Source: an uncultured Actinomycetes bacterium
GTDB taxonomy: Bacteria > Actinomycetota > UBA4738 > HRBIN12
Reading direction: 5' to 3'
Assembly (NCBI GenBank): GCA_964640085.1
Contig: CAZXFA010000014.1
Span: 281 to 64,280 of the forward strand
DNA: 64,000 bases
The first letter of the stretch is position 1, and each line of letters starts with the position of its first letter. The position numbers and the translations under genes were made by a program. The notes beneath the pieces were generated by a model that ran no database searches, was not told the DNA's origin, and worked only from the letters and a program-made list of their open reading frames with translations. Shown here piece by piece: positions 17,615-30,668 of this stretch.

Positions 17615-18517
17615 TCACGGCTCGGCGGTTCGGAGCTCGCCCTCCCGACGCACCACCTCGTTGAAGGACGCGATCGCGACGGCGATCTGATCGCGGTCCG
17701 GCGGCTGGGTGGTGATCTTCTGCAGCCACAGCCCGGGGGTCATCAGGGCTCGGACCAGTCGGGACCCTGGGAACCGCGCTCCGAGGCGGAGCAGCTCGAA
17801 CGCGATCCCCGCGATGATCGGGATCGCCAGGATCCGCGATCCGATCCGCCACCAGAGCCCGGGGTTCCCGAACACCGCGAAGACGAAGATCGTGATCACC
17901 ATCACCAGCAGCAGGAAGTTCGTGCCGCACCGGACGTGGAGCGTGGAGTAGCGGTCCACGGCCGAGGGCTCGAGCACCTCATCGTGCTCGTACGCGGCGA
18001 TCGTCTTGTGCTCGGCGCCGTGGTACGCGAAGACGCGTCGGATGTCCCTCGCGCGTCCGATGAGCAGGAGGTATCCCAGGAACAGCGCGACCCGGAACAC
18101 GCCCTCCATCGCGTTCACCGCCAAGCTCGAGTCCACCCGCCGCCCCACCCATCGGAACGCCGCCGCGGGCAGGACGATGAACAGGAGGAGGAAGATCGCG
18201 AGGGCGAGCACCATCGAGAGGGCCATCTGGCGGGACGAGAGCTGTTCCCCTTCCTCGGCCGCCTCCCGAGCGGAGATCGAGAGGGCCCGGAACCCGATGG
18301 CCAGCGCCTGTCCCAACGCGATTACCCCGCGGATGAACGGCTTCGCCAGGACCGGGTGGCGGCGAGCCACCGACCGGATCTCGTGCGACTCGATGTGGAG
18401 GTCCCCGGACGGCTTGCGGACCGCGATCGCCCAGACGTCGCGGCCGCGCATCATCACGCCCTCCACGACGGCCTGGCCGCCGTAGTGATGGTTGTGCTTG
18501 GCCGCCTCCTCCGCCAT
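17615..18517 (-). CDS. DUF1385 family membrane protein (putative metal-dependent enzyme)
   Basis: YGGQAVVEGVMMRG, YHGAEHKTI, HVRCGTNF, PGLWLQKITT. Confidence 0.88.
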   Translation of the reverse strand: MAEEAAKHNHHYGGQAVVEGVMMRGRDVWAIAVRKPSGDLHIESHEIRSVARRHPVLAKPFIRGVIALGQALAIGFRALSISAREAAEEGEQLSSRQMALSMVLALAIFLLLFIVLPAAAFRWVGRRVDSSLAVNAMEGVFRVALFLGYLLLIGRARDIRRVFAYHGAEHKTIAAYEHDEVLEPSAVDRYSTLHVRCGTNFLLLVMVITIFVFAVFGNPGLWWRIGSRILAIPIIAGIAFELLRLGARFPGSRLVRALMTPGLWLQKITTQPPDRDQIAVAIASFNEVVRREGELRTAEP

Positions 18518-18531
18518 CGGACGGGATCGGC

Positions 18532-18810
18532 TCAGTTGTCCTCGGGGGGAGACTCGCCCGTCGAGACGTCGGCCGGCTTGGCGGCGCGCGCCGATGCGGG
18601 CGCGCTGCCGCCCTGTTTCGCGTACCGCCGCTGGAACCGTTCGACCCGGCCCCCCGAGTCGACCAGCTTCTGCTTTCCCGTGTAGAAGGGGTGACAATTC
18701 GAGCAGATCTCGACGCGGAGCTCGGATCGCGTGCTCCGGGTCTGGAAGGTGTTCCCGCAGGCGCATTGGACCGTCGCCACGCCGTACTCCGGATGGATGC
18801 GTTGTTTCAT
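18532..18810 (-). CDS. rpmE: 50S ribosomal protein L31, zinc-binding type
   Basis: [32 protein letters not shown]. Confidence 0.96.
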
Positions 18811-18846
18811 GTTGCCTCGACTCCTCGCAGGTGATGGCGCTCCAGC

Positions 18847-20430
18847 TTACGAGGCCGGCGCCTTGGCGATCTCCTTGAGGAACTGCTCGTTGGACTTGGT
18901 CGAGCGGATCTTGTCCGTGAGCAGCTCGAGGGCCGCCCCCGGCTCGAGCGCGTGGAGCACCCGCCGGAGCCGCCAGACCAGCGCGAGCTCCTCGGGGGGC
19001 ATGAGCAGCTCCTCCTTGCGCGTGCTGCTCGCCTCCACGTTGATCGCGGGGAACAACCGTTTCTCAGCGAGCTGCCGATCCAGCCGCAGCTCCATGTTGC
19101 CCGTTCCCTTGAACTCCTCGAAGATCCCCTCGTCCATCCGGGAGCCGGTCTCCACCAACGCGCTCGCGATGATCGAGAGGGATCCGCCCTCCTCGATGTT
19201 CCGGGCGGCCCCGAAGAACCGCCGGGGCGGGTAGAGGGCGGTCGAGTCGATGCCCCCGGACAGGATCTTGCCCGAGGCCGGGGCCGCCAGGTTGTACGCG
19301 CGCGCCAGCCGCGTGATGGAGTCCAGGATGATGGCGACGTCCTGGCCCATCTCGGCCAGGCGCTTGGCCCGCTCCAGCACGAGCTCGGTTACCTGGATGT
19401 GCTGATCCGGCGGCTTGTCGAACGTCGAGTACACGACTTCGGCGGCCTCGACCGTTCGCTGCCAGTCGGTGACCTCCTCCGGACGCTCGTCCACCAGCAG
19501 CACGATCACATGGGTCTCGGGGTTCGAGTTCAGGATCCCGCTCGCGATGTTCTTCAAGACGGTCGTCTTGCCAGCCTTCGGCGGCGAGACGACCATCCCG
19601 CGCTGTCCCTTCCCGACCGGAGCAACCATGTCGATGATCCGGCCGGTGACGTCGGTGGGACCGGTCTCCAGACGGAAGCGTTCGTGCGGGAACAGCGGGG
19701 TGAGCTTCTCGAAGTTCGGCCGCCGCTTGGCCTCCTCCGGATCCAGCTCGTTCACCGACTCGATCTGGAGCAGGGCGAAGTACTTCTCGTTGTCCTTGGG
19801 CTGCCGCACCTTGCCGGTCACCGTGTCGCCCTTGCGCAGCATGAACCGCCGCACCTGGGAGAGCGAGACGTAGATGTCCTGCGACCCCGGCAGGTAGCCG
19901 GACGTCCGGAGGAACCCGTATCCCTCCGGGAGGATGTCGAGCAGCCCGGTGGCCGTCGGGGCGTTGGCGATCTCCTCCTCGCGCATCTCCAGCTCACGCT
20001 GCCGACGCTCCTCGCGCTGGCGGCGCCGCTCCTCGCGCGACGGACGTCGTCGTCCGCCTCCCCCCTCGCGTTCCCGACCAGACTCCGGTCGCGTCCCGTC
20101 GGGGCGTGCACCATGCGGACGGTCACGCCGATCGGGCTGCGTCTCCTGCGCGGCGCCGCCCTCGCGCCGCTCTCCGCCCCCCGGCTCGCGGTCCGCATGC
20201 TCGGGGGTAGCCGTCCGGGCGCCCGCGCCCCGATCGCCGTTGTCCGTCTCACGCTCCGATGCGGTCTCGGTCGCAGGGGCGGCGGTGTCGCCGTTCGCGT
20301 GGGCGAGGATCAGCTCGACCAGGTCCGCCTTCTTCAGTCCTCTGTGCCCCTCGATCCCGAGGTCGGACGCGATCTTGTGCAGCTCCGCCGCGACCTTGCC
20401 CTCGAGGGTGCTCCTGTCGATCGTGGCCAC
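18847..20430 (-). CDS. rho: Transcription termination factor Rho (with low-complexity N-terminal insertion)
   Basis: [49 protein letters not shown]. Confidence 0.97.
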
Positions 20431-21093
20431 TCAGGCTCCTTTCCCCAGCTCCCCCTGGAGGGCCTTCCAGTCCTGGAGGAACTTGTCCAACCCGATGTCG
20501 GTCAACGGGTGCTTCACGAGTTGCTTGAACACGTCATGCGGCATCGTGGCGATGTCGGCGCCAGCCAGCGCCGCCTCGACCACGTGCATCGGATGCCGGA
20601 GCGAGGCGGCGAGCACGTTGGTCTCGTACCCCTGGATCTCGTAGATGTCGCAGATCCTGCGCAGCACCTCCATGCCGTCGGAGCCCACGTCGTCCAGACG
20701 TCCGAGGAAGGGCGAGACGATGTAGGCGCCGATCTCGGCGGCCAGGAGCGCCTGCGCCGGCGAGAAGACGAGCGTGACGTTGATCCGGATCCCGTCGGCG
20801 ACCAGGCGCCTGCCGGCCGTGAGCCCGTCGGGCGTCACCGGGACCTTGACGACGGCGTTCGGGGCCATCCGGGCGAGCTCGACGCCCTGCTCGTACATCG
20901 GCCCGGCCTTTGGCTCGGTGGTCTCGAGCGAGATCGGCCCGTCGACCTCCGCAAGGATCTCCTTCCAGACCCGTTCGGGATCGTCGGCCTCCTTGGCGAC
21001 GAGCGACGGGTTCGTCGTCACGCCCCCGAGGACGCCCCACGCGCTGATCTCGCGGATCTCCTGGATGCTGGCGGTGTCCAGGAACAGCTTCAC
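20431..21093 (-). CDS. Transaldolase / fructose-6-phosphate aldolase family (short form)
   Basis: KLFLDTA, GVTTNPSL, VVKVP, NVTLVFS, SPFLGRLDD, AASLRHP; GTG start overlaps the stop of the 2-phosphoglycerate kinase gene. Confidence 0.92.
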   Translation of the reverse strand: MKLFLDTASIQEIREISAWGVLGGVTTNPSLVAKEADDPERVWKEILAEVDGPISLETTEPKAGPMYEQGVELARMAPNAVVKVPVTPDGLTAGRRLVADGIRINVTLVFSPAQALLAAEIGAYIVSPFLGRLDDVGSDGMEVLRRICDIYEIQGYETNVLAASLRHPMHVVEAALAGADIATMPHDVFKQLVKHPLTDIGLDKFLQDWKALQGELGKGA

Positions 21094-22067
21094 CGCTTCC
21101 CCCCTCCTTCGGTCGTACCGGCGACTCGGACCGCGTGCTGGGTCGCGCGGGCGGTCGCGTGCTCCATGACGAGGTCGATGACCGCGGCGAGCGCGCGATC
21201 GAAGTTGTAGTTCGGGATCACGGGGACGCCGTGCGAGAGGGCCTGGCTCTTGATGTACCGCTGCACCCGGCGGATGTTGTCGAACGCCTCCATGTACCGC
21301 CCGGCCGGGCGGCCGGCGTGGTCGGCGGCGCGCACCAGGAAGTGGTTCCGGTGGACCTCCTCGTCGTCCACCGTGAGGATCAGGGGCACGACGAGCACCC
21401 GATCCTCCCAGGCGGACAGGTCCACGAATCCGGGCACGACGTGCGCGCCCTCGATGATCACGCTCGTCCCCTCCATCGCCGCCCGGTCGAGCAACGCGTG
21501 CAGGCCCACCGCCACGGCGGCGGTCTGCTCGCGGAAGCCGACGATCACGGCGTCGCGGGACGGCGGCTCGCGGAGCACCGAGCCCGCCTCGAACGAGGAC
21601 GCGTGGAGCGCGGGCATCAGCTCCCTCGAGAACAGGGCCCGCATGACCTCGCGGACCGCGTCGGTCGCGACCACGCGCACGATCCCCAGCCGCGTGGCGA
21701 GCTGGGTCGCGATCGTGGACTTGCCCACCCCAGTCGTGCCTCCGATCAGCACGACCATCGGGACGTCCAGCGCCTCGACCTCCTGCCACCGGAGGAAGTT
21801 CTTCGCGTATCGCTCCCCGGCCAGCTCCTCGATCGCCTGGAGCGCGATCCGCCGGAGGTCGTCGGAGGAGATGGAGGGCAGGCCGAGATCGAGCAGGCGC
21901 TCCTCGACCGCCTCGGCGACCTGGTACGCGCGGTACGGGGACAGGCCAGTCACCATCACCTGCGAGGCCATCAGCCCCTTGGAGTAGGGCAGCCCAGTCT
22001 CCCCGTCGGAGATCAGGATCTGGGGGTTCTTCGGGTCCTTCCGGGACCCGGATGCGTCCTGCGTCAT
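21090..22067 (-). CDS. pgk2: 2-phosphoglycerate kinase (ATP-cone plus P-loop)
   Basis: N-terminal ATP-cone-like PYSKGLMA..AYQVAEAVEERL; IGGTTGVGKSTIATQLATRLGI..TDAVREVMR; LHASSF; IIEGAHVVPG. Confidence 0.88.
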   Translation of the reverse strand: MTQDASGSRKDPKNPQILISDGETGLPYSKGLMASQVMVTGLSPYRAYQVAEAVEERLLDLGLPSISSDDLRRIALQAIEELAGERYAKNFLRWQEVEALDVPMVVLIGGTTGVGKSTIATQLATRLGIVRVVATDAVREVMRALFSRELMPALHASSFEAGSVLREPPSRDAVIVGFREQTAAVAVGLHALLDRAAMEGTSVIIEGAHVVPGFVDLSAWEDRVLVVPLILTVDDEEVHRNHFLVRAADHAGRPAGRYMEAFDNIRRVQRYIKSQALSHGVPVIPNYNFDRALAAVIDLVMEHATARATQHAVRVAGTTEGGGKR

Positions 22068-23392
22068 CTGCGGCTCTTCCGCTCTTCCGCGAGCTCGATC
22101 GTCTCCCCCAACGCGGTGGGGAGATCGGTCGCTCCGTCCACCACGACGGCCCGGTTGTCGGCGAAGACGACCTCGGCCCCACGTGCCAGGGCGCGCTCGC
22201 AGGCGACGTCCACCGCCGCGGCCTTCAGCTCCGTGAGGAGGATGTCGTAGGCCTCCGCACCGTCCATGTCCTCCACCAGCCCGGCGCGGTCAGCCAGGCG
22301 GGCGCTCCACCCCACCACACGGCACCCGTGCGCCCGTTCCAAGACCTCGGCCTGCCTCGCGGCGACCGCGCCCGGAGCCGTGGTGGCGAAGAACACGTCC
22401 CTGCCCCGGACATCCCCGAGCGGCTGTGGTTCGAAATCCGTAACGATGAATCGCGCATCAGTGCGGAGCCGCTGGACGTGGGACCTGAGAGCAGGAAGGT
22501 TCTCGAGCCCGGTTGGGCTGCGACCCATCGTAACAACCACCAGGTCCGATAGCAACAGGCGGAACGGACCGAGGTACCCACCCAGGTACTCGGGCGGTGC
22601 GGTCGCCGGCACGACCAGGACCCCCGCGTCCCAGGGAACCGTCGGCACCGAGGCGCCGCTGCCCTCGAGCACGATCAGCCCTGCACCGAGGTCCACGGCG
22701 AGCTCAGCCGCGTCACGCACGTTGGTCGCCATCGGCCGCCCCGCGAGCCCCCCGCCGGCCCGCCGAGCACCCACGGTGGTCACGCCGCTCGTGACGGCGT
22801 CCTCGAGGTAGTCGGAGGCGGCGTGCTCCCCGCGCCGCACCAGGTCGAGCAGGCGGTCGAGGGTCACGCCCCCCGCCTCGGCCACCTGCGGGCGGGGGGG
22901 GCCGCCGCGACCCATCGCGACGACCACCGGGTTCCGACCCGCGCGCGCCGCCACCCGCGCGACCTCACCGCCGATCGCGGTCTTCCCGGTCCGCTTCCCG
23001 GTGCCGATCACGGCCAGCGTGGCCACGGGGAGGGGCGCCCCCTCGATCGGCGGATCCAGGCGGAAATCCGGTCCCAGGTACGGGATCCCACGGGTCAGCG
23101 CCACTGCGGCCAGCTCCATCCGTTCTCGGTACCCGAGCACCGGCTCATCCGACAGGTCCAGCACACCCTCGGGCGAGAGCTCCTCGATCGCGGTCGCGAG
23201 CGCCTCCATCCGCCCACGCGAGACCGTGAGGATCGGCACGCCGAGATCCACTGCCTCGTCCGGCCGGACCTTCTCGACGCCGCCGACGAGGAGCGCCGCC
23301 ACCGGCTCGTGACCCGACCCCCGAGCTGCCTCGATGCCCCAGCGGGTGACCGGTGGGTAGTGTTCGCCGTCGACCAAGACGAGCACCCTCAC
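22064..23392 (-). CDS. cpgS: Cyclic 2,3-diphosphoglycerate synthetase
   Basis: LVDGEHYPPV, DLSDEPVL, IGTGKRTGKTA, VAMGRGGP, HAASDYLEDA, RRAGGGLAG, EGSGA, TELKAAAVDV match family motifs as I recall them; SD GGAGG upstream of GTG 23392. Confidence 0.9.
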   Translation of the reverse strand: MRVLVLVDGEHYPPVTRWGIEAARGSGHEPVAALLVGGVEKVRPDEAVDLGVPILTVSRGRMEALATAIEELSPEGVLDLSDEPVLGYRERMELAAVALTRGIPYLGPDFRLDPPIEGAPLPVATLAVIGTGKRTGKTAIGGEVARVAARAGRNPVVVAMGRGGPPRPQVAEAGGVTLDRLLDLVRRGEHAASDYLEDAVTSGVTTVGARRAGGGLAGRPMATNVRDAAELAVDLGAGLIVLEGSGASVPTVPWDAGVLVVPATAPPEYLGGYLGPFRLLLSDLVVVTMGRSPTGLENLPALRSHVQRLRTDARFIVTDFEPQPLGDVRGRDVFFATTAPGAVAARQAEVLERAHGCRVVGWSARLADRAGLVEDMDGAEAYDILLTELKAAAVDVACERALARGAEVVFADNRAVVVDGATDLPTALGETIELAEERKSRR

Positions 23393-23433
23393 GGTGTTCC
23401 CTCCGCCCTCCGAGATGGCGTGGTCGCTTCGGC

Positions 23434-24237
23434 TCAGTTCCCTTGCTGCGCCGCGGCGGTTCGCAGCGGCTGCTGCACGGGCGGCTCGAGCTCCCGGTAG
23501 AACTGCTCGCCCGTGGACAGCGCGAAGTGCGCGATCGCGCTCCCGCCGCCGAACGGGTAGCGGCGCGTGATCTTCACATCGTCGCCCTCGAACTCGAGCA
23601 CGTTGTAACAGGGCTTCGTGTAGCCCCGGAGCCGGAGCGAGGCGACGGTCCCGGCGTTGGCTACGTACAGATCCTCCAGCCGCCACACGTAGGGGACGTG
23701 CTTGTGCCCGGACAGGACGATGTTCACGCCGGCCGAGATCAGCTCTTCGAGCAGATCCCCCGCGTCCATCACGGTGCTCCGTTCTCGGCCGGTGCCGGGG
23801 ATCGGCAGGAGGTGATGATGGAGCACGAACACCTTGAGATCGGCCGCAGCCCGGAACTGCTCGCGGATCCACGGATAGCGTTCGCGGCCGACCTGACCCT
23901 CGTTGACGTCGGGCTCGCTGGAGTCCACGCCCACGATCCGAACCCCCTCCACGTCCACGCACCAATGCCGCTCGCCGATCAGCTCCTCGAAGTGCAGGTA
24001 TCCCACGTTGCGCGCGTCGTGGTTACCGGGGATCGTGTGTATCGGCGCCCGGATCCGATCGGCGTAGGCCACCCAGTTCTTGTACTCCTGCCGGAACCCC
24101 TCGTTGGTGAGGTCCCCGCTGCAGATCACGACGTCGGGCTGGAGCTCGTTCAGCTCGACGATGACCCGGTTCATCAGGTTCGGGACGAAGTAGGGGGATC
24201 CAACGTGCGGGTCGGAGATGTGGGCGACCGTGACCAC
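23434..24237 (-). CDS. Calcineurin-like metallophosphoesterase (CpdA/Icc-like)
   Basis: HISDPH, SGDLT, PGNHD, HHH, SGHKH metal-binding motifs; GTG 24237 preceded by TACACT 6 nt upstream. Confidence 0.9.
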   Translation of the reverse strand: MVTVAHISDPHVGSPYFVPNLMNRVIVELNELQPDVVICSGDLTNEGFRQEYKNWVAYADRIRAPIHTIPGNHDARNVGYLHFEELIGERHWCVDVEGVRIVGVDSSEPDVNEGQVGRERYPWIREQFRAAADLKVFVLHHHLLPIPGTGRERSTVMDAGDLLEELISAGVNIVLSGHKHVPYVWRLEDLYVANAGTVASLRLRGYTKPCYNVLEFEGDDVKITRRYPFGGGSAIAHFALSTGEQFYRELEPPVQQPLRTAAAQQGN

Positions 24238-24300
24238 GGCGTCAGTGTATCCGCGGCCGAGGCGGCGGCGCCCGACACCGCGTGGGACCATACGGACGCC

Positions 24301-25470
24301 GTGAACGGGCTCGATGCGTTCCTGCTCGTCCTGCTGATCCTGGCCGGCCTGTCGGGGTTCCGGCGTGGCCTCGCGCTCCAGACGCTCAGCTTCGGGGGCC
24401 TCCTGGTCGGGCTGGCCGTGGGAGCCGTGATGGCGCCGCTGCTCGTCGGTCTGGTGGAGAGCCCTGCGGCGCGGGCGACCACCGCCGTGCTGGTGTTGGT
24501 GGGGTTCGGCGTTGCCGGGGACGCGGCGGGCTGGCTCCTGGGGGACCGTCTGCGGACGCGGGCACGAGCGACGCGCTTCGGTCGAGCCGACGCGATCGGG
24601 GGGTCCGCCGTGGCGATCCTCGCGTCGCTGGTCGCGATCTGGTTCCTGGCGCTGAACCTCGCCAACGGGCCCCTTCCCGGCGTGGCCGCCGAGATCCGAG
24701 GGTCGGCGATTGTTCGCACGCTCGACGACGCGCTCCCGCAACCCCCCTCGCTCCTGGCGCAGGTCCGGCGCTTCTTCAACCGGTTCGGCTTCCCCGATGT
24801 GTTCTCCGGGATCCCGCCCCTGCCCGCCGACCCGGTCGACCCGCCCTCGCGGGCGCAGGCCCGAGCGGCCTTCGAGGAGGCCGCTCCCAGCACGGTCCGG
24901 GTCGTCGGGCGCGCCTGCGACTCGGTGCAGGAGGGGTCCGGGTTCGTGGTCGCCGAGGGCTACGTGGTCACCAACGCCCACGTGGTGGCCGGGATGCCCG
25001 ATCCCCTGGTGCAGTTCGCGGACGGCACGAGCCTGCCCGGCACGACGGTGCTGTTCGACCCCCAGATGGACCTGGCGATCCTGTTCGTGCGGCAGGGGAT
25101 CGGCGATCCGCTCACCCTCGTCGGGGACGCAGGGCGCGGCGACACGGGCGTGGTGCTCGGGTACCCGAGAGGCGGGCCGCTCACCGGAGACGGGGCGGCC
25201 GTGCTGCGGACGATTGACGCCGTCGGTCGAGACATCTATGGACGGCGCGAGGCCGAGCGCGACGTCCTCGAGCTCCAGGCCGAGGTCCGGCCGGGCAACT
25301 CCGGGGGTCCATTCGTGCTCCTGGACGGTTCGGTCGCGGGCGTGGTCTTCGCGGCCTCGTCGACCGACGACGAGATCGGATACGCGATCGCCTCGCAGGA
25401 GGTCACGCCCCGGGTGGGACAGGCCCTCGGGCGGATCGACGAGGTCCCAACCGGTTCCTGCCTGCCCTGA
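24301..25470 (+). CDS. MarP-like membrane serine protease (CvpA TM domain plus trypsin-like domain)
   Basis: N-terminal TM helices; GSGFVV, TNAHVV, DLA, GYP, PGNSGGP catalytic triad motifs. Confidence 0.88.
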   Translation: MNGLDAFLLVLLILAGLSGFRRGLALQTLSFGGLLVGLAVGAVMAPLLVGLVESPAARATTAVLVLVGFGVAGDAAGWLLGDRLRTRARATRFGRADAIGGSAVAILASLVAIWFLALNLANGPLPGVAAEIRGSAIVRTLDDALPQPPSLLAQVRRFFNRFGFPDVFSGIPPLPADPVDPPSRAQARAAFEEAAPSTVRVVGRACDSVQEGSGFVVAEGYVVTNAHVVAGMPDPLVQFADGTSLPGTTVLFDPQMDLAILFVRQGIGDPLTLVGDAGRGDTGVVLGYPRGGPLTGDGAAVLRTIDAVGRDIYGRREAERDVLELQAEVRPGNSGGPFVLLDGSVAGVVFAASSTDDEIGYAIASQEVTPRVGQALGRIDEVPTGSCLP

Positions 25471-25548
25471 CCGCCCGTGTCGGGACCCGACGCTCCGCCG
25501 GGAGGCGCCCGACGTCGGCCGAACGGGCCACTTGAGGGGCGACACGGC

Positions 25549-25574
25549 CCACATCCTCCGGCCACATCCTCCGG
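25549..25574. repeat. 13-bp perfect tandem direct repeat (CCACATCCTCCGG x2)
   Basis: Read directly in the intergenic region upstream of the L,D-transpeptidase gene. Confidence 0.8.
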
Positions 25575-25616
25575 CGAGTTCTCCATCGGCGTGCCGGGGC
25601 CCCCGATACGGGCTGT

Positions 25617-26459
25617 GTGGGACGCCTCCGATCGCCGGTCCGCGTCGTCCTCGTGCTCGCGCTGGGACTCGTGCTCGCGCTGGGGCTCGTACCTATGGGT
25701 GCGGGTGGGGCCGGCCTGGCGTCCGAGCGACCCGGAGGCGGTGCGACAGGGTTCGCACCGGTCCCAGCCGGCTCGCGGACCCTGGCGACCGAGGCGCGGG
25801 AGGCGATGCTCATCGCGCGCCCGCCCGTCCGCACCGCCTCCGCCGAGGAGCGATCCATCGCCCACCTGCTGGTCCGGATCGAACGAGCCCTGCCGTTGTC
25901 CGCCCGACCGGGTGGCGGGAGGAGGGTCGGCATCCTGCCGGCCGGCTCCCGCTACTACGGGACACCGATCGTGGCATGGGTGCTGGAGGTCAGCCGGGAC
26001 GGACGGTTCGGGCGGGTCTCGATCCCCTACTCCGAGGGTCGGGCCACGGGGTGGGTCCGCCTCCGTGGCCTCGAGAGCCTGACCACCCGGGTGAGCGTGG
26101 TCGCTGACCTCTCGCAGCACCGCATCGAGGTCCGTCGTGGCGAGCGCGTCCTGTTCTCCGCCCCCGCCGCGACCGGAGCGCCGGGGTCCCCCACCCCTCC
26201 CGGCCGCTACTTCGTCACCGACCGGGTGGCGTTCCCGGCGGGCGGCGTGCTGGGGACCTTCGCGTTCGGGGTCTCGGGGATCCAGCCCCGGCTGCCCGTC
26301 GGGTGGACAGGTGGTGACCAGCTCGCGATCCACGGGACCAACGCACCGTGGACGATCGGGACCTCGTCCAGCGCCGGCTGCCTCCGCGTGTCCGATCGGG
26401 TGCTCGACCGTCTCCGACCGCTGCTGCGGCTCGGCACGCCGGTGATCGTGCACAGGTAG
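25617..26459 (+). CDS. L,D-transpeptidase (YkuD domain) with signal peptide
   Basis: TPPGRYFV, AIHGT, SSAGCLR (catalytic His and Cys); hydrophobic N-terminus. Confidence 0.88.
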   Translation: MGRLRSPVRVVLVLALGLVLALGLVPMGAGGAGLASERPGGGATGFAPVPAGSRTLATEAREAMLIARPPVRTASAEERSIAHLLVRIERALPLSARPGGGRRVGILPAGSRYYGTPIVAWVLEVSRDGRFGRVSIPYSEGRATGWVRLRGLESLTTRVSVVADLSQHRIEVRRGERVLFSAPAATGAPGSPTPPGRYFVTDRVAFPAGGVLGTFAFGVSGIQPRLPVGWTGGDQLAIHGTNAPWTIGTSSSAGCLRVSDRVLDRLRPLLRLGTPVIVHR

Positions 26460-26482
26460 GCACGACCGGCCGACCGCGAGCC

Positions 26483-28717
26483 CTACTCCTCCATCACGAC
26501 CCGCACATCGCCCTCACGGTCCAGGAGCGAGAACGACGTGATCTCGCCTTCCCGCCGGAACAGGAGGCTGATCCGGCTCTCGCCCACCAGCAGGTTGCGT
26601 ACCTCGACGGTGTTGAGCCAGGTCGGCAGGTGCGGCTGGTTCACGCGGAGAAGGTTCCGGTGGGCCCGGGCGGAGATCCCGAGCATCGCCTGGAGCATCA
26701 GGTACGGGGAGCCCGCCGCCCATGCCTGAGGGGAGCAGGCGATCGGGTAGCTGACCGGGCGGTTCGGCGTCCGACGCGTGAAGCCGCAGAAGAGCTCGGG
26801 CAGCCGGAGGTAGTCCGCGGTGATCGCCGCGTCGAACAGCGCCGTCGCCACCCGGTTCGTCGCTCGCGCGAGCCCGTACCGCTTCATCCCGGCCGCGATC
26901 AAGGCGTTGTCGTGCGGCCAGACCGAGCCGTTGTGGTAGCTCATGGGGTTGTAGGCGGCCGCCCCCTTGCTCATCGTCCGGATGCCCCAGCCGCTGAACA
27001 TGTCCGGGGAGAGGAGGCGCCTGGCCAGCGCGTCGGCCTTGTCGTCGTCGACGATCCCGCAGTACAGGCCGTGTCCCGGGTTCGACATCACCGTGCGCAC
27101 CGGCTGCTTCTCGCCGTCGAGGGCGGCGGCGAAGTAGCGCTCGTCCTCCATCCAGAAGACCTCGTTGAAGCGAGCCCGCAGGCGGAGCCCCTCGAGCTCC
27201 AGGCGGGTCGCCTCCTCCTCGCGCCCCAGGGCTCGGTAGACGTCGGCCATCCGCTGCTTGGCCAGGTAGACGTACGCCTGCACCTCCGCGAGCGCCATCG
27301 GCGGCTCCGCCGGGCGGCCGTCGTCGTGGACGATCGCATCGTGCGAGTCCTTCCACCCCTGGTTGCGGAGCCCGCGGGGCGACCGGCACAGGTACTCGAC
27401 GAAGCCGTCCCCATCGAGATCTCCGTACCGATCGATCCAGGAGAGGGCGGCCTCCGCCGCCGGCAGGAGCTTCTCCGCGAACGCGACGTCGCCCGTCCAT
27501 CGGAAGTGCTGCGCGTACACGATCAGGAACCACGGCGTGGCGTCCACCGACCCGAAGTAGGGGGTGTGGGGAACGACACCGGCCCGGGCGAGCTCCCCCC
27601 GACGGATCTCGTGGAGGATCTTGCCCGGTTGCTCGTCCCGCCAGTCGTCGACCTCCGTCCCCTGCTTGTCGGCGAGCAGCTGGAGGGCCTCGCGGGCGGA
27701 GCGCGTGTTCACCATCAGGAGCTGGTGGGCGGTGATCAGCGAGTCTCGGCCGAAGACCGTGACGTACCACGGGATCCCCGCGGCGAGGACGCCGCCGTCG
27801 GCGGTCTCCGTCCAGAGCGCTCGGAGGTCGCGCAGGCTCCGATCCAGGAGCTGGTTGTACAGCTCGTTGTCGGTCGCGATCCTGGTCGACCCGCGCTCCC
27901 ACTCCTCGTAGGACCGGCGGAGCACGTGGATCGCGTGATCGAAGTCCACGGCCGCGACGGGCCCGTCCTCCTCGACGGGCTCGACCGTCAGCCCCACGAG
28001 CTTGGTCTGGTACGGACCCAGGTGGAGCCGGAAGAGGGCCACCGCCGTGACCCCATCCACCTCGATCCGGTCGGGCCGGGCGGCGAAGGACACCCGGGTG
28101 GATCGTCGCACCCGATCGCGCCCCTGGCAGACGAACTCGACCGTCCCGCGGTCGATCGCGGGGGGGCGGGGCTGCTCCGGTACCTCGCGCGCCATGCCGC
28201 GCACCTCGAAGATGTCGGCGAAGTCGGCGGCGAACCGGAACTCCAGGTCGATCTCCACGGGTGACGGGTTGTAGTTCTTCACCCGGACCCGCTCGAACAG
28301 CCGACCGTTGATCGCCCGGATCCGGCGGATGTTGAGGGTCTGCTGCGGAACCACCACCTCGCCTTCGCGGAAGAGATCCGGGTTGGTGAGGTCGACGTGC
28401 GACATGTAGCCGCGCTCGGACGAGGACGACAGCAGCACGGGGTCCCGCCCGTTGATCGTCATCCGGAAGAGCGAGAGGAACCGCGTGTCCCGTGCGTACA
28501 GACCGAGTCCGAAGTCCCCGCCGTGATCCAGGTTCCCCTCGAGGTCCGAGTACAGGAAGGTGTCGCCCTCCTTGACCGAGAGCGTCTTGCTGGCGAGATC
28601 GGTGAGCAGGATGGGCGGGCTCCCCGGCTGGGGGTGGGAGGAAGCGGGGCGAACCTCCGCATGCGCATCCATCGAGGTGATCCTCGCGAGTCTAGGTTCG
28701 GTCTCGGGCACGTTCAA
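26483..28717 (-). CDS. Amylo-alpha-1,6-glucosidase / glycogen-debranching family (alpha/alpha)6 glycoside hydrolase
   Basis: GLYARDTRFLS, FADIFEVRG, AGIPWY..FGRDSLI, EQPGKILHE, NQGWKDS, YHNGSVWPHDN, PQAWAAG. Start may be 28672. Confidence 0.88.
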   Translation of the reverse strand: MNVPETEPRLARITSMDAHAEVRPASSHPQPGSPPILLTDLASKTLSVKEGDTFLYSDLEGNLDHGGDFGLGLYARDTRFLSLFRMTINGRDPVLLSSSSERGYMSHVDLTNPDLFREGEVVVPQQTLNIRRIRAINGRLFERVRVKNYNPSPVEIDLEFRFAADFADIFEVRGMAREVPEQPRPPAIDRGTVEFVCQGRDRVRRSTRVSFAARPDRIEVDGVTAVALFRLHLGPYQTKLVGLTVEPVEEDGPVAAVDFDHAIHVLRRSYEEWERGSTRIATDNELYNQLLDRSLRDLRALWTETADGGVLAAGIPWYVTVFGRDSLITAHQLLMVNTRSAREALQLLADKQGTEVDDWRDEQPGKILHEIRRGELARAGVVPHTPYFGSVDATPWFLIVYAQHFRWTGDVAFAEKLLPAAEAALSWIDRYGDLDGDGFVEYLCRSPRGLRNQGWKDSHDAIVHDDGRPAEPPMALAEVQAYVYLAKQRMADVYRALGREEEATRLELEGLRLRARFNEVFWMEDERYFAAALDGEKQPVRTVMSNPGHGLYCGIVDDDKADALARRLLSPDMFSGWGIRTMSKGAAAYNPMSYHNGSVWPHDNALIAAGMKRYGLARATNRVATALFDAAITADYLRLPELFCGFTRRTPNRPVSYPIACSPQAWAAGSPYLMLQAMLGISARAHRNLLRVNQPHLPTWLNTVEVRNLLVGESRISLLFRREGEITSFSLLDREGDVRVVMEE

Positions 28718-28752
28718 TGACCATCCTCACAGGACTACGAGCGGCGGCGAGC

Positions 28753-29613
28753 CTATCGCTCGACGATCTCCGGACCGGTGGCGCGGATCGAAACCGGCAG
28801 GACCCGCCACCCGTCCACCTGGTGGACCACCTCGGCGGGATCGCGAGGGAAGGCGAGCAGGGACGGCCCCGCGCCAGAGACGCAGATCGGCATCTTGGCT
28901 CCCAGGCGCTCGAAGACCTCCCCCACCTGCGGCACGAGCGAGAGCCGGACCGCCTGATGGAGCCGATCGCGGAGGGCGAGGTGCAGCAGCTCGCGGTCGC
29001 CCTCCACGAGGGCCTGGACCACCAGCGCTCCGTGGGCCACGTTGAAGACAGCGTCACCGAGGGGCACGCGTTCGGGCAGCGCGCGCCGGGCCTCCCCGGT
29101 CGGGAGTCGGGCGCGGGGAACGAGCACCACGGGCGTGAGCGCGTCCGAGACCTCGAAGCGCCGGACCCGCCCGTCTGCGATCACCGTCAGGCCTCCGAAG
29201 GCGGCCGGGGCCGCGTTGTCCGGATGACCTTCGAGCCCGGCGGCATGATCGAACACCGACGGCGGATCGAGGGCGGCTGGGATCCCCAGCAGGAGCCGGC
29301 CGATCGCCACCCCTGCGACCGCGGCGGCGGACGATGACCCGAGCCCGCGCTCCAGCGGGATCCGGTTCACGCCGCGCAGCTGCACGGGCGGGAGCGTCGA
29401 GCCAGCCTTCTGGGCGACCGACCGCATCGCCCGACTCACGATGTCGGTGCCGTCCACCGGGAGCTCGTCCGCGCCCTCGCCATCCCATCGCACCCCCGAC
29501 CCGGCTCCCGTCTCGACCGTGACCTCGTTGCACAGGTCGAGCGCGAGTCCGAAGCAGTCGAAGCCTGGGCCGAGGTTGGCCGAGGTGGCCGGGACCCGGA
29601 CGGTGACGCGCAC
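28753..29613 (-). CDS. thrB: Homoserine kinase
   Basis: VPATSANLGPGFD, PLERGLGSSSAA, EGHPDNAAP, SGAGPS. Confidence 0.94.
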   Translation of the reverse strand: MRVTVRVPATSANLGPGFDCFGLALDLCNEVTVETGAGSGVRWDGEGADELPVDGTDIVSRAMRSVAQKAGSTLPPVQLRGVNRIPLERGLGSSSAAAVAGVAIGRLLLGIPAALDPPSVFDHAAGLEGHPDNAAPAAFGGLTVIADGRVRRFEVSDALTPVVLVPRARLPTGEARRALPERVPLGDAVFNVAHGALVVQALVEGDRELLHLALRDRLHQAVRLSLVPQVGEVFERLGAKMPICVSGAGPSLLAFPRDPAEVVHQVDGWRVLPVSIRATGPEIVER

Positions 29614-29615
29614 GG

Positions 29616-30668
29616 CTACAGCCCGAGCTCGGCCGCGACCGCGTGTGGTTCGGGGGGCACGGTCGGCGGGTGCGCGGCCCCCGAGATCGCCCACTCCGGG
29701 TCCTTCAGCCCGTGCCCGGTGAGGACGCAGACGACGGTCGTATCCCGCGACAGTCCACCCTCCGCGGCCAGGTGCAGGAGCCCGGCCACGCTCGCGGCCG
29801 AGGCGGGTTCGACGAAGAGTCCCTCGCGGGCCACCCGTCGATAGGCCGCGAGGATCTCCCGATCCGTCACGGCCGAGATCGAGCCCTCGGACTCCTTGGC
29901 GGCGGCGACCGCCCGGTCCCACGAGGCGGGGTTGCCGATCCGGATCGCCGTGGCGATCGTCTGCGGCTCGGCGATCGGCTCCCCACGGACGATCGGCGCC
30001 GCGCCGGCCGCCTGGAAGCCGAACAGCCTCGGCGGCTCGTGGATCACGCCGTCCCGCAGGTACTCCGAGTAGCCCATCCAGTGGCTCGAGATGTTCCCGG
30101 CGTTGCCGACCGGGACACAGTGCAGGTCGGGCGCCCGTCCCAGCCCGTCGCAGATCTCGAACGCGGCGGTCTTCTGCCCCTCGAGCCGGTACGGGTTGAG
30201 CGAGTTCACCAGGGTGACCGGATAGTGCTCCGCGAGACCCCGGGCGAGGGCGAGGGACGCGTCGAAGTTGCCGTCCACCTCCAGAACGCGAGCGGCGTGG
30301 ACGAGCGTCCCGGCCATCTTGCCCAGCGCGACCTTGCCCTTGGGCACGAGCACGGCGCAGGGGATCCCCGCCTTGCCGGCGTAGGCGGCGGCGGACGCGC
30401 TCGTGTTGCCGGTCGACGCGCAGACCACCGCCTTCGACCCCTCCTCAAGCGCCTTGCTGATCGCGAGCGTCATCCCGCGGTCCTTGAACGAGGCGGTGGG
30501 GTTGGCCCCCTCGTACTTCAGCCACACCTCGCATCCCGTCTCGGCCGAGAGCGACTCCGAGCGCACGAGTGGCGTCCCGCCTTCGCCCAGGGTGATCACC
30601 TGGGTGGCGTCGGTGACCGGCAACCGATCCCGGTACTCCTCGATCACCCCACGCCAGGGGCGGGCCAT
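29616..30668 (-). CDS. thrC: Threonine synthase
   Basis: [45 protein letters not shown]. Confidence 0.95.

What the first reader, a model, noticed from the sequence alone, without database searches (positions are those of the whole stretch)
23434..24237. Metallophosphoesterase heading the cpgS operon may be the cDPG hydrolase
Seen: a full set of calcineurin-like motifs (DxH, GD, GNHD, HH, GHxH), no signal peptide, and first position in the putative cpgS-pgk2 unit. Established: CpdA-like enzymes open cyclic phosphate esters. A cDPG-hydrolysing activity was described biochemically in methanogens, and to my knowledge it has no assigned gene. Inference: this enzyme reopens cDPG to 2,3-DPG or dephosphorylates DPG, which would complete a synthesis/degradation cycle.
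Basis: inference. Interest (0 to 1): 0.8.

Follow-up and report, generated by a model that had tools for sequence, protein, structure and literature searches.

The report
Phosphoesterase gene riding with cDPG synthesis genes
A two-metal phosphoesterase gene sits just upstream of the genes that make the protective solute cyclic 2,3-diphosphoglycerate in many Actinomycetota, which makes it a testable but unproven candidate for the enzyme that breaks that solute down.

Summary
Window 23434-24237 (minus strand) encodes a 267-aa calcineurin-like metallophosphoesterase (MPE). It has all the metal-binding motifs, no membrane segment, and lies 41 nt upstream of cpgS, which is followed by 2-phosphoglycerate kinase.

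In 401 sampled genomes of the phylum, cpgS was found in 230 and this MPE family in 227. By my hand tally, 225 genomes have both and only 2 of 171 cpgS-negative genomes have the MPE family. The cpgS-adjacent copies form one clade in the first, 60-row tree. The pair stays together in three different genomic contexts.

Several points weaken the case:
- The block sits inside a larger inherited synteny (hom-thrC-thrB ... FSA-rho).
- The MPE was lost several times while cpgS was kept.
- Active-site residues are shared with paralogues and archaeal relatives.
- Ten Methanobacterium-like contigs carry a homologue with no cpgS nearby.
- The biochemically described methanogen hydrolase was membrane-bound.

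No tool here tests activity. My estimates are about 0.4 for a cDPG-opening hydrolase, 0.15 for a 2,3-DPG phosphatase, and 0.3 for an unrelated phosphodiesterase. It is not a CpdA by curated score. The chemistry would be hydrolysis of a cyclic pyrophosphate, not of a cyclic ester.

The parts
23434..24237 (-). MPE-A: 267-aa binuclear metallophosphoesterase, first gene of the unit. Metal-ligand codons: D9 24211-24213, H11 24205-24207, D42 24112-24114, N72 24022-24024, H73 24019-24021, H141 23815-23817, H178 23704-23706, H180 23698-23700. The family-specific T-G-R-E-R loop is at residues 149-153 (R151 = 23785-23787).
23393..23433 (-). 41-nt spacer between the MPE stop and the cpgS GTG start. It holds a purine-rich GGAGGGCGGAGGG stretch ahead of the start.
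   Evidence: Read directly. No terminator-like site was found in 18500-25000 (weak). One 160-nt contig from an RNA library (23320-23479) bridges it (weak).
22064..23392 (-). cpgS, cyclic 2,3-diphosphoglycerate synthetase homologue (442 aa)
   Evidence: E 7e-92 to 8ORU/8ORK; E 6e-91 to 9SXB. Sources name its close homologues cDPG synthetase.
21090..22067 (-). 2-phosphoglycerate kinase homologue (325 aa). Its start overlaps the cpgS stop by 4 nt.
   Evidence: PRK04220 E 1e-87, below the curated cut-off; coordinates
20431..21093 (-). Fructose-6-phosphate aldolase/transaldolase-type gene. It is a conserved downstream neighbour and probably not part of the cDPG module.
   Evidence: TIGR00875 266 bits, above cut-off. 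It is absent from the relocated trios.
18847..20430 (-). rho, the downstream anchor of the inherited synteny
24300..25470 (+). Divergent MarP-family CvpA + trypsin-like protease (start approximate). It marks the upstream end of the unit in this order only.
   Evidence: It is not found next to the MPE outside the order.
26483..28717 (-). GDE-type glycoside hydrolase with an MGH1-like (mannosylglycerate-hydrolase-like) domain. In several other families it lies directly upstream of the MPE.

Best explanation
The gene encodes a soluble, two-metal phosphoesterase of a distinct subfamily, here called MPE-A. In most cpgS-bearing Actinomycetota sampled, MPE-A lies directly upstream of cpgS, usually followed by 2PGK, on the same strand.

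Most likely it is the degradative partner of the pathway. A metal-bridged hydroxide would attack one phosphorus of the cyclic pyrophosphate of cDPG and open it to 2,3-diphosphoglycerate, returning stored phosphate and carbon to glycolysis.

Shown: the fold, the metal ligands, and the genomic and phyletic linkage to cpgS. Inferred: the substrate, the product, co-transcription, and that these bacteria make cDPG at all. Pairing a synthetase with its hydrolase in one operon has precedents (ppk-ppx, glgCAP; recalled, not tested here).
For: 1. Order level. MPE-cpgS-2PGK-FSA lie in the same order and strand in 30 of 30 loci (3 of these are from unpublished genomes G021, G031, G041). The MPE is adjacent in 5 of 7 further loci.

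2. Phylum sample of 401 genomes. cpgS is in 230 and the MPE family at E<=1e-25 in 227. My hand cross-tabulation gives both 225, cpgS only 5, MPE only 2, neither 169. The family tallies are all-or-none and match (for example f14 0/21 in both searches, f19 31/31 in both).

3. Hand-picked cpgS loci. I chose 39 loci from about 33 families. The MPE is directly upstream on the same strand with a gap under 300 nt in 27, and 451 or 835 nt away in 2. A further 5 of 5 family-f21 genomes are adjacent although their cpgS is only 36-40% identical.

4. High-GC metagenome contigs found through the MPE. In 54 of 70, cpgS follows downstream on the same strand. 9 end too soon to tell and 7 have at least 0.9 kb downstream without it.

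5. Tree. In the first tree the cpgS-adjacent copies form one clade (SH-aLRT 89) apart from the non-adjacent paralogues.

6. Contexts. The pair persists in three contexts: inside hom-thrC-(thrB)-...-FSA-rho; as a bare MPE-cpgS-2PGK trio with 5-10 kb of other flanks (L152 and ten metagenome contigs); and as MPE-cpgS without 2PGK in f19, where 2PGK lies elsewhere.

7. Conservation. At tblastn identity the MPE was at least as conserved as cpgS in every locus holding both: 71-88% against 67-78% in the order, and 51-68% against 39-52% across the phylum.

8. Relatives. The nearest solved relatives are diesterases (GpdQ, Rv0805). That suits attack on a monoanionic, doubly substituted phosphorus. The family adds invariant basic and acidic residues near the site (T-G-R-E-R, D-S-x-x-P-D).

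9. Literature. Searches found no gene assigned to cDPG hydrolysis.
Against: 1. The block is embedded in a wider conserved synteny, hom-thrC-thrB-(GDE)-[block]-FSA-rho. Adjacency may therefore be partly inheritance, and loss of adjacent genes together (or of one MAG contig) inflates the co-absence count.

2. The cpgS-negative families may form only a few clades, so independent events are few. I had no taxon names and ran no corrected test.

3. MPE-A was lost with cpgS-2PGK kept in these cases:
- f9: 4 of 4 loci.
- f16: 2 of 3 loci.
- f25 and f66: 1 locus each.
- G058 and G042.
- G058 (85% complete) has no family member at E<=1e-8, and G078 has none better than E 4e-11.

4. Active-site and extra conserved residues are shared by paralogue clades B/C and by archaeal relatives; only 7 positions are A-specific. 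C-type copies occur in the 2 cpgS-negative genomes. Family members are named from Altiarchaeales, Wukongarchaeota, Diapherotrites and WOR-3, whose cpgS status I could not check.

5. 0 of 10 low-GC Methanobacterium-like contigs have cpgS or 2PGK near the homologue; 4 of them offer 8-10 kb of flank.

6. In the larger second tree the 'adjacent' label needs 4 changes. An f19-like duplicate lies away from cpgS, and one soil lineage has an opposite-strand PAS-GGDEF-EAL gene between the two.

7. The hydrolase described in M. thermautotrophicus was membrane-bound (review passage), whereas this protein has no hydrophobic segment.

8. No data show that any Actinomycetota contains cDPG.
Confidence: 0.4

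Rival explanations
1. It belongs to the same pathway but acts one step later. It would be a 2,3-diphosphoglycerate phosphatase that removes one phosphate to give 2- or 3-phosphoglycerate. That would either drain the intermediate or complete the return of cDPG carbon to glycolysis.
For: All the linkage evidence applies equally. After GpdQ and Rv0805, the next structural matches are purple acid phosphatases, which are monoesterases. An arginine-rich conserved loop would suit a penta-anionic substrate.
Against: The closest sequence and structure relatives are diesterases, not monoesterases. In f19 the MPE stays with cpgS while 2PGK, the producer of 2,3-DPG, lies elsewhere. That ties it more to the cDPG step. 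The inference is weak either way.
Confidence: 0.15
2. It is a general phosphodiesterase or pyrophosphatase with no role in cDPG metabolism (cyclic nucleotide, glycerophosphodiester, nucleotide-sugar or similar). It would sit beside cpgS only because this thrB-rho region has kept its gene order since an early actinobacterial ancestor.
For: - Synteny extends to unrelated genes on both sides (hom, thrC, thrB, FSA, rho).
- Sources annotate homologues as CpdA/Icc.
- Catalytic and extra conserved residues are the same in paralogues and archaeal relatives that are not next to cpgS.
- The gene is dispensable in several cpgS-bearing lineages.
Against: - Only 2 of 171 cpgS-negative genomes carry any member of the family, against 225 of 230 cpgS-positive ones. 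That includes lineages (f9, f16, f66) where the only copy lies elsewhere in the genome, so adjacency cannot explain their co-presence.
- The trio occurs without its usual flanks.
- It fails the CpdA and SpdA curated cut-offs (46 against 225 bits; 45 against 400 bits).
Confidence: 0.3

Closest known systems
GpdQ, glycerophosphodiesterase of Enterobacter aerogenes (PDB 2DXL, 2ZO9, 3D03)
   Same: It is the best sequence match among solved structures (E 1.6e-11) and the top Foldseek match (E 2e-16, TM about 0.65-0.71). It shares the binuclear metallophosphoesterase core and metal ligands and has a similar size.
   Different: Identity is only about 20%. GpdQ lacks the T-G-R-E-R loop and the D-S-S-x-P-D segment that are invariant in this family (alignments). 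There is no link to cpgS.
Class III cyclic-nucleotide phosphodiesterases (Rv0805, CpdA/Icc)
   Same: Same fold and motif set. Rv0805 matches at E 1.6e-9 by sequence and 3e-16 by structure. Sources label homologues CpdA/Icc.
   Different: It scores 46.3 bits on the NCBIfam CpdA model against a 225-bit cut-off, so it is not a CpdA by that standard. Substrate is untested.
cDPG hydrolase activity of Methanothermobacter thermautotrophicus (Sastry et al. 1992; known to me only from a reference entry and a review passage)
   Same: This is the reaction proposed here, cDPG to 2,3-DPG. My searches found no gene assigned to it. Family members are named from Methanobacterium and Methanobrevibacter.
   Different: It is described as membrane-bound and inhibited by K+ and phosphate (PMC1224877 passage). 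This protein has no membrane segment. Whether M. thermautotrophicus has a family member was not testable here.
Metallophosphoesterases that cut pyrophosphate bridges (LpxH/LpxG, ADP-ribose/CDP-alcohol pyrophosphatase; recalled)
   Same: They show that this fold can hydrolyse a P-O-P bond flanked by esters, which is the bond type in cDPG. There is a weak LpxG match (23 bits, E 3.5e-5).
   Different: There is no meaningful sequence relationship (the cut-off is 350 bits). The analogy concerns chemistry only.
ppk-ppx and glgCAP operons (recalled)
   Same: A synthetase and the enzyme that degrades its product are encoded in one unit for a phosphate or carbon store.
   Different: The protein families are unrelated. 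This is an analogy of logic only.

Membership tests
Calcineurin-like metallophosphoesterase superfamily (PF00149) | Motif blocks D-x-H, G-D, G-N-H-[DE], H and G-H-x-H that supply the ligands of two metals | tested here: met
   D9/H11, D42, N72/H73, H141 and H178/H180 are present. PF00149 scores 73 bits against a 21.5-bit cut-off.
Calcineurin-like metallophosphoesterase superfamily (PF00149) | Beta-sandwich core flanked by helices | tested here: met
   AlphaFold2 model with mean pLDDT 91.1 and pTM 0.89. At least 429 PDB matches at E<=0.001; those listed are metallophosphoesterase-type entries.
CpdA/Icc 3',5'-cAMP phosphodiesterase (NCBIfam NF008359) | Score at or above the curated equivalog cut-off | tested here: not met
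   46.3 bits against 225
CpdA/Icc 3',5'-cAMP phosphodiesterase (NCBIfam NF008359) | Hydrolysis of cAMP | not testable with these tools
   Needs an enzyme assay
cDPG hydrolase (activity described in M. thermautotrophicus) | Converts cDPG to 2,3-DPG | not testable with these tools
   Needs an assay with cDPG and 31P-NMR or a coupled read-out
cDPG hydrolase (activity described in M. thermautotrophicus) | Membrane-bound | tested here: not met
   No hydrophobic segment (highest 19-residue hydropathy 1.02). Peripheral attachment cannot be excluded.
cDPG hydrolase (activity described in M. thermautotrophicus) | Present in organisms that make cDPG | tested here: inconclusive
   In the phylum sample it occurs with cpgS in 225 of 230 cpgS-positive genomes. 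Family members are named from Methanobacterium and Methanobrevibacter. The classical producers could not be searched, because no archaeal genome handle was obtainable.
cpgS-2PGK gene unit of Actinomycetota | Same strand, short spacer, position conserved across distant lineages and across different flanks | tested here: met
   41-nt spacer here; 30/30; 27 + 2 of 39; 5/5; 54/70; three contexts
cpgS-2PGK gene unit of Actinomycetota | Co-transcription with cpgS | tested here: inconclusive
   One 160-nt contig from an RNA library of a 95-99% alike relative bridges the spacer. Contigs do not prove a single transcript, and DNA carry-over is possible.

The most novel reading that the evidence does not exclude
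The MPE-A clade is the long-missing cDPG hydrolase. cDPG would then not be a speciality of hyperthermophilic methanogens. It would be made and reopened as a dynamic phosphate, energy and osmolyte store by a large share of Actinomycetota, from a three-gene module (hydrolase, synthetase, 2-phosphoglycerate kinase) whose phosphoesterase's nearest relatives outside the phylum bear mostly archaeal names.
Probability: 0.33. Interest if true: 0.8.

Novelty: new variant of a known kind. Interest (0 to 1): 0.62.

Why it matters
cDPG hydrolysis was described biochemically more than 30 years ago, and my searches found no gene for it. A concrete, cheaply testable candidate would close the synthesis/degradation cycle. 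It would also give a tool for controlling cDPG yields in production strains, since cDPG is being developed as a protein and DNA stabiliser (PMC12136491, abstract seen).

Separately, cpgS and 2PGK homologues occur in 230 of 401 sampled Actinomycetota genomes. This conflicts with the printed statement that cDPG is exclusive to hyperthermophilic methanogens (abstract of PMC10690619). It suggests an unrecognised solute or phosphate store in common soil and sediment bacteria.

Tried and rejected
- Archaeal genome survey. The single genome-contig scan, anchored on a cpgS alignment, returned only Actinomycetota as its best 80. Metagenome loci could not serve as genome handles. Co-occurrence in archaea is therefore untested.
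- Third homologue search, with the Methanobacterium protein. It listed only Methanobacterium or Methanobacteriaceae names, or none. It says nothing about Methanothermobacter, Methanothermus or Methanopyrus.
- Second homologue search, with cpgS. It listed only close actinobacterial relatives.
- ESM Atlas. It returned only the protein's own actinobacterial clusters.
- Promoter/terminator scan. Nothing was found on either count. It is uninformative at 71% GC.
- Rfam on 18000-30000. No match.
- Neighbours of the B/C paralogues. No conserved neighbour across 10 loci. Pfam on the genes flanking the window genome's own paralogue gave only a short-chain dehydrogenase.
- RNA-library contigs. Some bins in 22601-23308 and 24194-24547 have no cover in one or more runs. 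I draw no conclusion from that.
- Sastry et al. 1992 is not held in the library.
- The whole-word search for 'cpgS' returned only CpG papers among the 15 listed. The 'diphosphoglycerate' + 'Rubrobacter' search gave nothing relevant.
- I considered and dropped a biosynthetic role for the MPE. The two known steps (2PGK, cDPGS) need no phosphoesterase (review passage).
- I did not run complex prediction, because no binding claim is made.

Full report
WHAT IS THERE.

The window has about 71% G+C. Sources name its close protein homologues as coming from uncultured 'Actinomycetota bacterium' MAGs.

On the minus strand, 23434-24237 encodes a 267-aa protein with a GTG start. It carries every metallophosphoesterase motif: D9-x-H11, G41-D42, G71-N-H-D74, H140-H-H142 and G177-H-K-H180. 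Pfam Metallophos scores E 5e-20.

No 19-residue window is hydrophobic enough for a membrane helix (highest 1.02). The modelled fold starts at residue 2, so there is no signal peptide.

The neighbours, read downstream on the same strand and then upstream, are:
- cpgS (22064-23392), 41 nt downstream, with E 7e-92 to the solved M. fervidus cDPG synthetase over nearly its full length.
- A 2-phosphoglycerate kinase homologue (21090-22067), with PRK04220 at E 1e-87, below the curated cut-off.
- A fructose-6-phosphate aldolase/transaldolase-type gene, then rho.
- Upstream, a divergent MarP-family protease.

WHAT KIND OF PHOSPHOESTERASE.

By sequence, the nearest solved proteins are GpdQ (E 1.6e-11) and Rv0805 (E 1.6e-9). 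An AlphaFold2 model (pLDDT 91) matches the same two best (E about 1e-16, roughly 20% identity), followed by purple acid phosphatases.

It is not a CpdA by NCBI's curated model (46 against 225 bits).

A search of 1.84 billion representative proteins gives a moderate family: 202 clusters at E<=1e-30 and 951 at E<=1e-10.

Outside the close actinobacterial set, the names attached to the clusters I looked up were:
- Methanobrevibacter sp.
- Methanobacterium sp.
- Methanomicrobia and Thermococci MAGs (tandem two-domain forms of about 490 aa)
- Altiarchaeales, Wukongarchaeota and Diapherotrites
- A WOR-3 bacterium and a Gaiellaceae bacterium

Many clusters carry no name.

Beyond the metal ligands, the family has invariant D-S-x-x-P-D (105-110), G114, G117, T-G-R-E-R (149-153), D158, G-D (160-161) and W185. 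GpdQ lacks this loop in the printed alignment.

THE LINKAGE TEST.

(a) Within the order.
- cpgS was found in 58 of 61 genomes and the MPE in 57 of 61.
- All 30 loci returned show MPE-cpgS-2PGK-FSA in the same order. Three of these are from unpublished genomes G021, G031 and G041.
- Of 7 more loci, 5 keep the MPE. In 2 (G058, G042) it is missing between cpgS and the MarP gene.

(b) Across the phylum.
- In an evenly drawn sample of 401 genomes, cpgS is in 230 and the MPE family in 227. Both tallies include the unpublished genomes listed in those outputs.
- Comparing the two tables by hand gives both 225, cpgS only 5, MPE only 2, neither 169.
- The cpgS-only genomes are G078, G245, G326, G429, and G227 with a weak 5e-13 hit. 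The MPE-only genomes are G170 and G357.

(c) Hand-picked loci. I fetched 39 cpgS loci of my own choosing, about one per family with extras for f9 and f16.
- The MPE is immediately upstream on the same strand in 27.
- It is 451 or 835 nt away in 2.
- It is absent although upstream DNA is present in 8 (f9 x4, f16 x2, f25, f66).
- The contig ends too early in 2.
- A fortieth, blind fetch held no cpgS and was dropped.

(d) In family f21, where cpgS is only 36-40% identical, 5 of 5 genomes are adjacent.

(e) A metagenome scan anchored on the MPE family returned 70 high-GC contigs.
- cpgS follows on the same strand in 54.
- 9 end within 150 nt of the MPE.
- 7 have 0.9-9.9 kb downstream without it.

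PARALOGUES.

A first tree of 60 family members puts all 32 cpgS-adjacent copies in one clade (SH-aLRT 89). The non-adjacent genomic copies fall into two other clades (99 and 92).

The window's own genome has such a paralogue (G000 contig 2, 3329-4051, about 50% identity).

Lineages that lost the adjacent copy (f9, most of f16, f66, G042) keep only a B- or C-type copy elsewhere. The two cpgS-negative genomes with a hit carry C-type copies. G058 has no family member at E<=1e-8, and G078 has none better than E 4e-11.

A larger second tree shows two exceptions to 'A means adjacent':
- An f19-like duplicate that is not near cpgS.
- A soil lineage in which an opposite-strand PAS-GGDEF-EAL gene separates the two.

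HOW MUCH THE ADJACENCY MEANS.

The block is not an isolated island. In many families it lies in hom-thrC-thrB-(GDE-type hydrolase)-MPE-cpgS-2PGK-FSA-rho. From memory, hom-thrC-thrB-rho is also the mycobacterial order. Part of the conservation is therefore inherited gene order, and adjacent genes disappear together in a deletion or a missing MAG contig.

Three observations go beyond that:
- The trio MPE-cpgS-2PGK also occurs with 5-10 kb of unrelated flanks and no hom, thr, FSA or rho. This is seen in L152 from genome G272 and in ten metagenome contigs, which may represent one lineage.
- In f19 the MPE stays with cpgS although 2PGK and FSA are not there.
- Lineages whose only family copy is elsewhere in the genome are still cpgS-positive, while 169 of 171 cpgS-negative genomes have no family member at all.

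I had no taxon names and ran no phylogenetically corrected test. The number of independent events may be small.

The MPE is under strong constraint. At tblastn identity it was at least as conserved as cpgS in every locus holding both.

EVIDENCE THAT CUTS THE OTHER WAY.
- Ten low-GC (0.30-0.48) Methanobacterium-like contigs carry a homologue (38-44% identity to the window protein) with no cpgS or 2PGK hit. Four of them give 8-10 kb on at least one side. Their neighbours, read by eye, include a geranylgeranyl-reductase-like gene, a membrane protein, a regulator and a pst-like transporter.
- Whether those organisms have cpgS elsewhere is unknown.
- The residues that would define substrate choice are the same in clade A, clades B/C and the archaeal proteins. 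Only R24, P145, E188, L203, C210, Y211 and R225 are A-specific.
- The one description of the methanogen hydrolase that I could read calls it membrane-bound and inhibited by K+ and phosphate (PMC1224877, passage).

EXPRESSION.

Contigs from three metatranscriptome runs of one sediment study, 95-99% alike, lie on FSA, 2PGK, cpgS and the MPE. One 160-nt contig spans the MPE-cpgS spacer. This is compatible with expression and co-transcription in a close relative, but contigs cannot prove either.

MECHANISM AND ODDS.

cDPG is a cyclic pyrophosphate. Opening it means hydrolysing a P-O-P bond whose phosphorus atoms each carry one ester and one charge (the anhydride nature is stated in PMC12136491, passage). 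That is formally like a diester and is within the known range of this fold (LpxH-type and ADP-ribose pyrophosphatases; recalled).

With diesterases as the nearest relatives, a conserved basic loop, and first position in a synthetase unit, my estimates are:
- cDPG-opening hydrolase: about 0.4
- 2,3-DPG phosphatase: 0.15
- Unrelated phosphodiesterase kept by synteny: 0.3
- Something else: the remainder

LITERATURE.
- No paper in the library holds both 'diphosphoglycerate synthetase' and 'metallophosphoesterase'.
- Papers with 'cDPG' and 'hydrolase' (8), or with the synthetase name (14), give no gene for the hydrolase. I saw listings and passages only.
- The abstract of PMC10690619 states that cDPG is found exclusively in hyperthermophilic methanogens.
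- The 25 listed of 43 papers naming 2-phosphoglycerate kinase showed none that addresses Actinomycetota.
- I did not see supplements.

VERDICT.

This is a new variant of a known enzyme kind with a specific, cheap, decisive assay.

Noticed in passing
window 21090-23392, with phylum-wide searches: cpgS homologues occur in 230 of 401 sampled genomes of the phylum. 2PGK lies next to cpgS in most of the loci I fetched. The abstract of PMC10690619 calls cDPG exclusive to hyperthermophilic methanogens. Whether these bacteria make cDPG is untested.
   Followed up: partly
window 26483-28717 (minus strand): A GDE-type glycoside hydrolase with an MGH1-like (mannosylglycerate-hydrolase-like) domain. In several other families its homologue lies directly upstream of the MPE. 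That places a possible glycosyl-glycerate solute hydrolase beside the cDPG genes.
   Followed up: partly
G000 contig 2, 3329-4051 (locus L038): A second family member in the same genome, about 50% identical and of paralogue clade B. Across 10 loci it has no conserved neighbours.
   Followed up: partly
proteins P0248, P0250 and about 25 further clusters: Archaeal proteins of about 490-550 aa made of two tandem copies of this phosphoesterase domain (about 31-35% identity each). Those I looked up are named from Methanomicrobia and Thermococci MAGs.
   Followed up: no
L229 3575-7222: In one soil lineage an opposite-strand PAS-GGDEF-EAL gene is inserted between the MPE and cpgS. Related contigs L187, L231 and L235 show 1.6-2.3 kb gaps.
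   Followed up: partly
L037 (G040 contig 3, 419000-434000): The MPE, cpgS, 2PGK, FSA and rho all align in several frame-shifted pieces. This looks like indel errors in a long-read assembly rather than gene decay.
   Followed up: no
L160, L163, L164, L166: The Methanobacterium-like homologue keeps a small conserved neighbourhood: a geranylgeranyl-reductase-like gene, a membrane protein, a regulator, and a pst-like phosphate transporter a few kb away. These were read by eye from ORF starts.
   Followed up: no
PDB entry 9SXB: A third solved chain named cDPG synthetase (436 aa) matches the window's cpgS at E 6e-91. I do not know its source organism.
   Followed up: no
window 18847-20430: The Rho protein carries a long Arg/Glu/Gly-rich insert (roughly residues 45-150) between its N-terminal domain and its RNA-binding domain. 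From memory this is usual for Actinomycetota.
   Followed up: no
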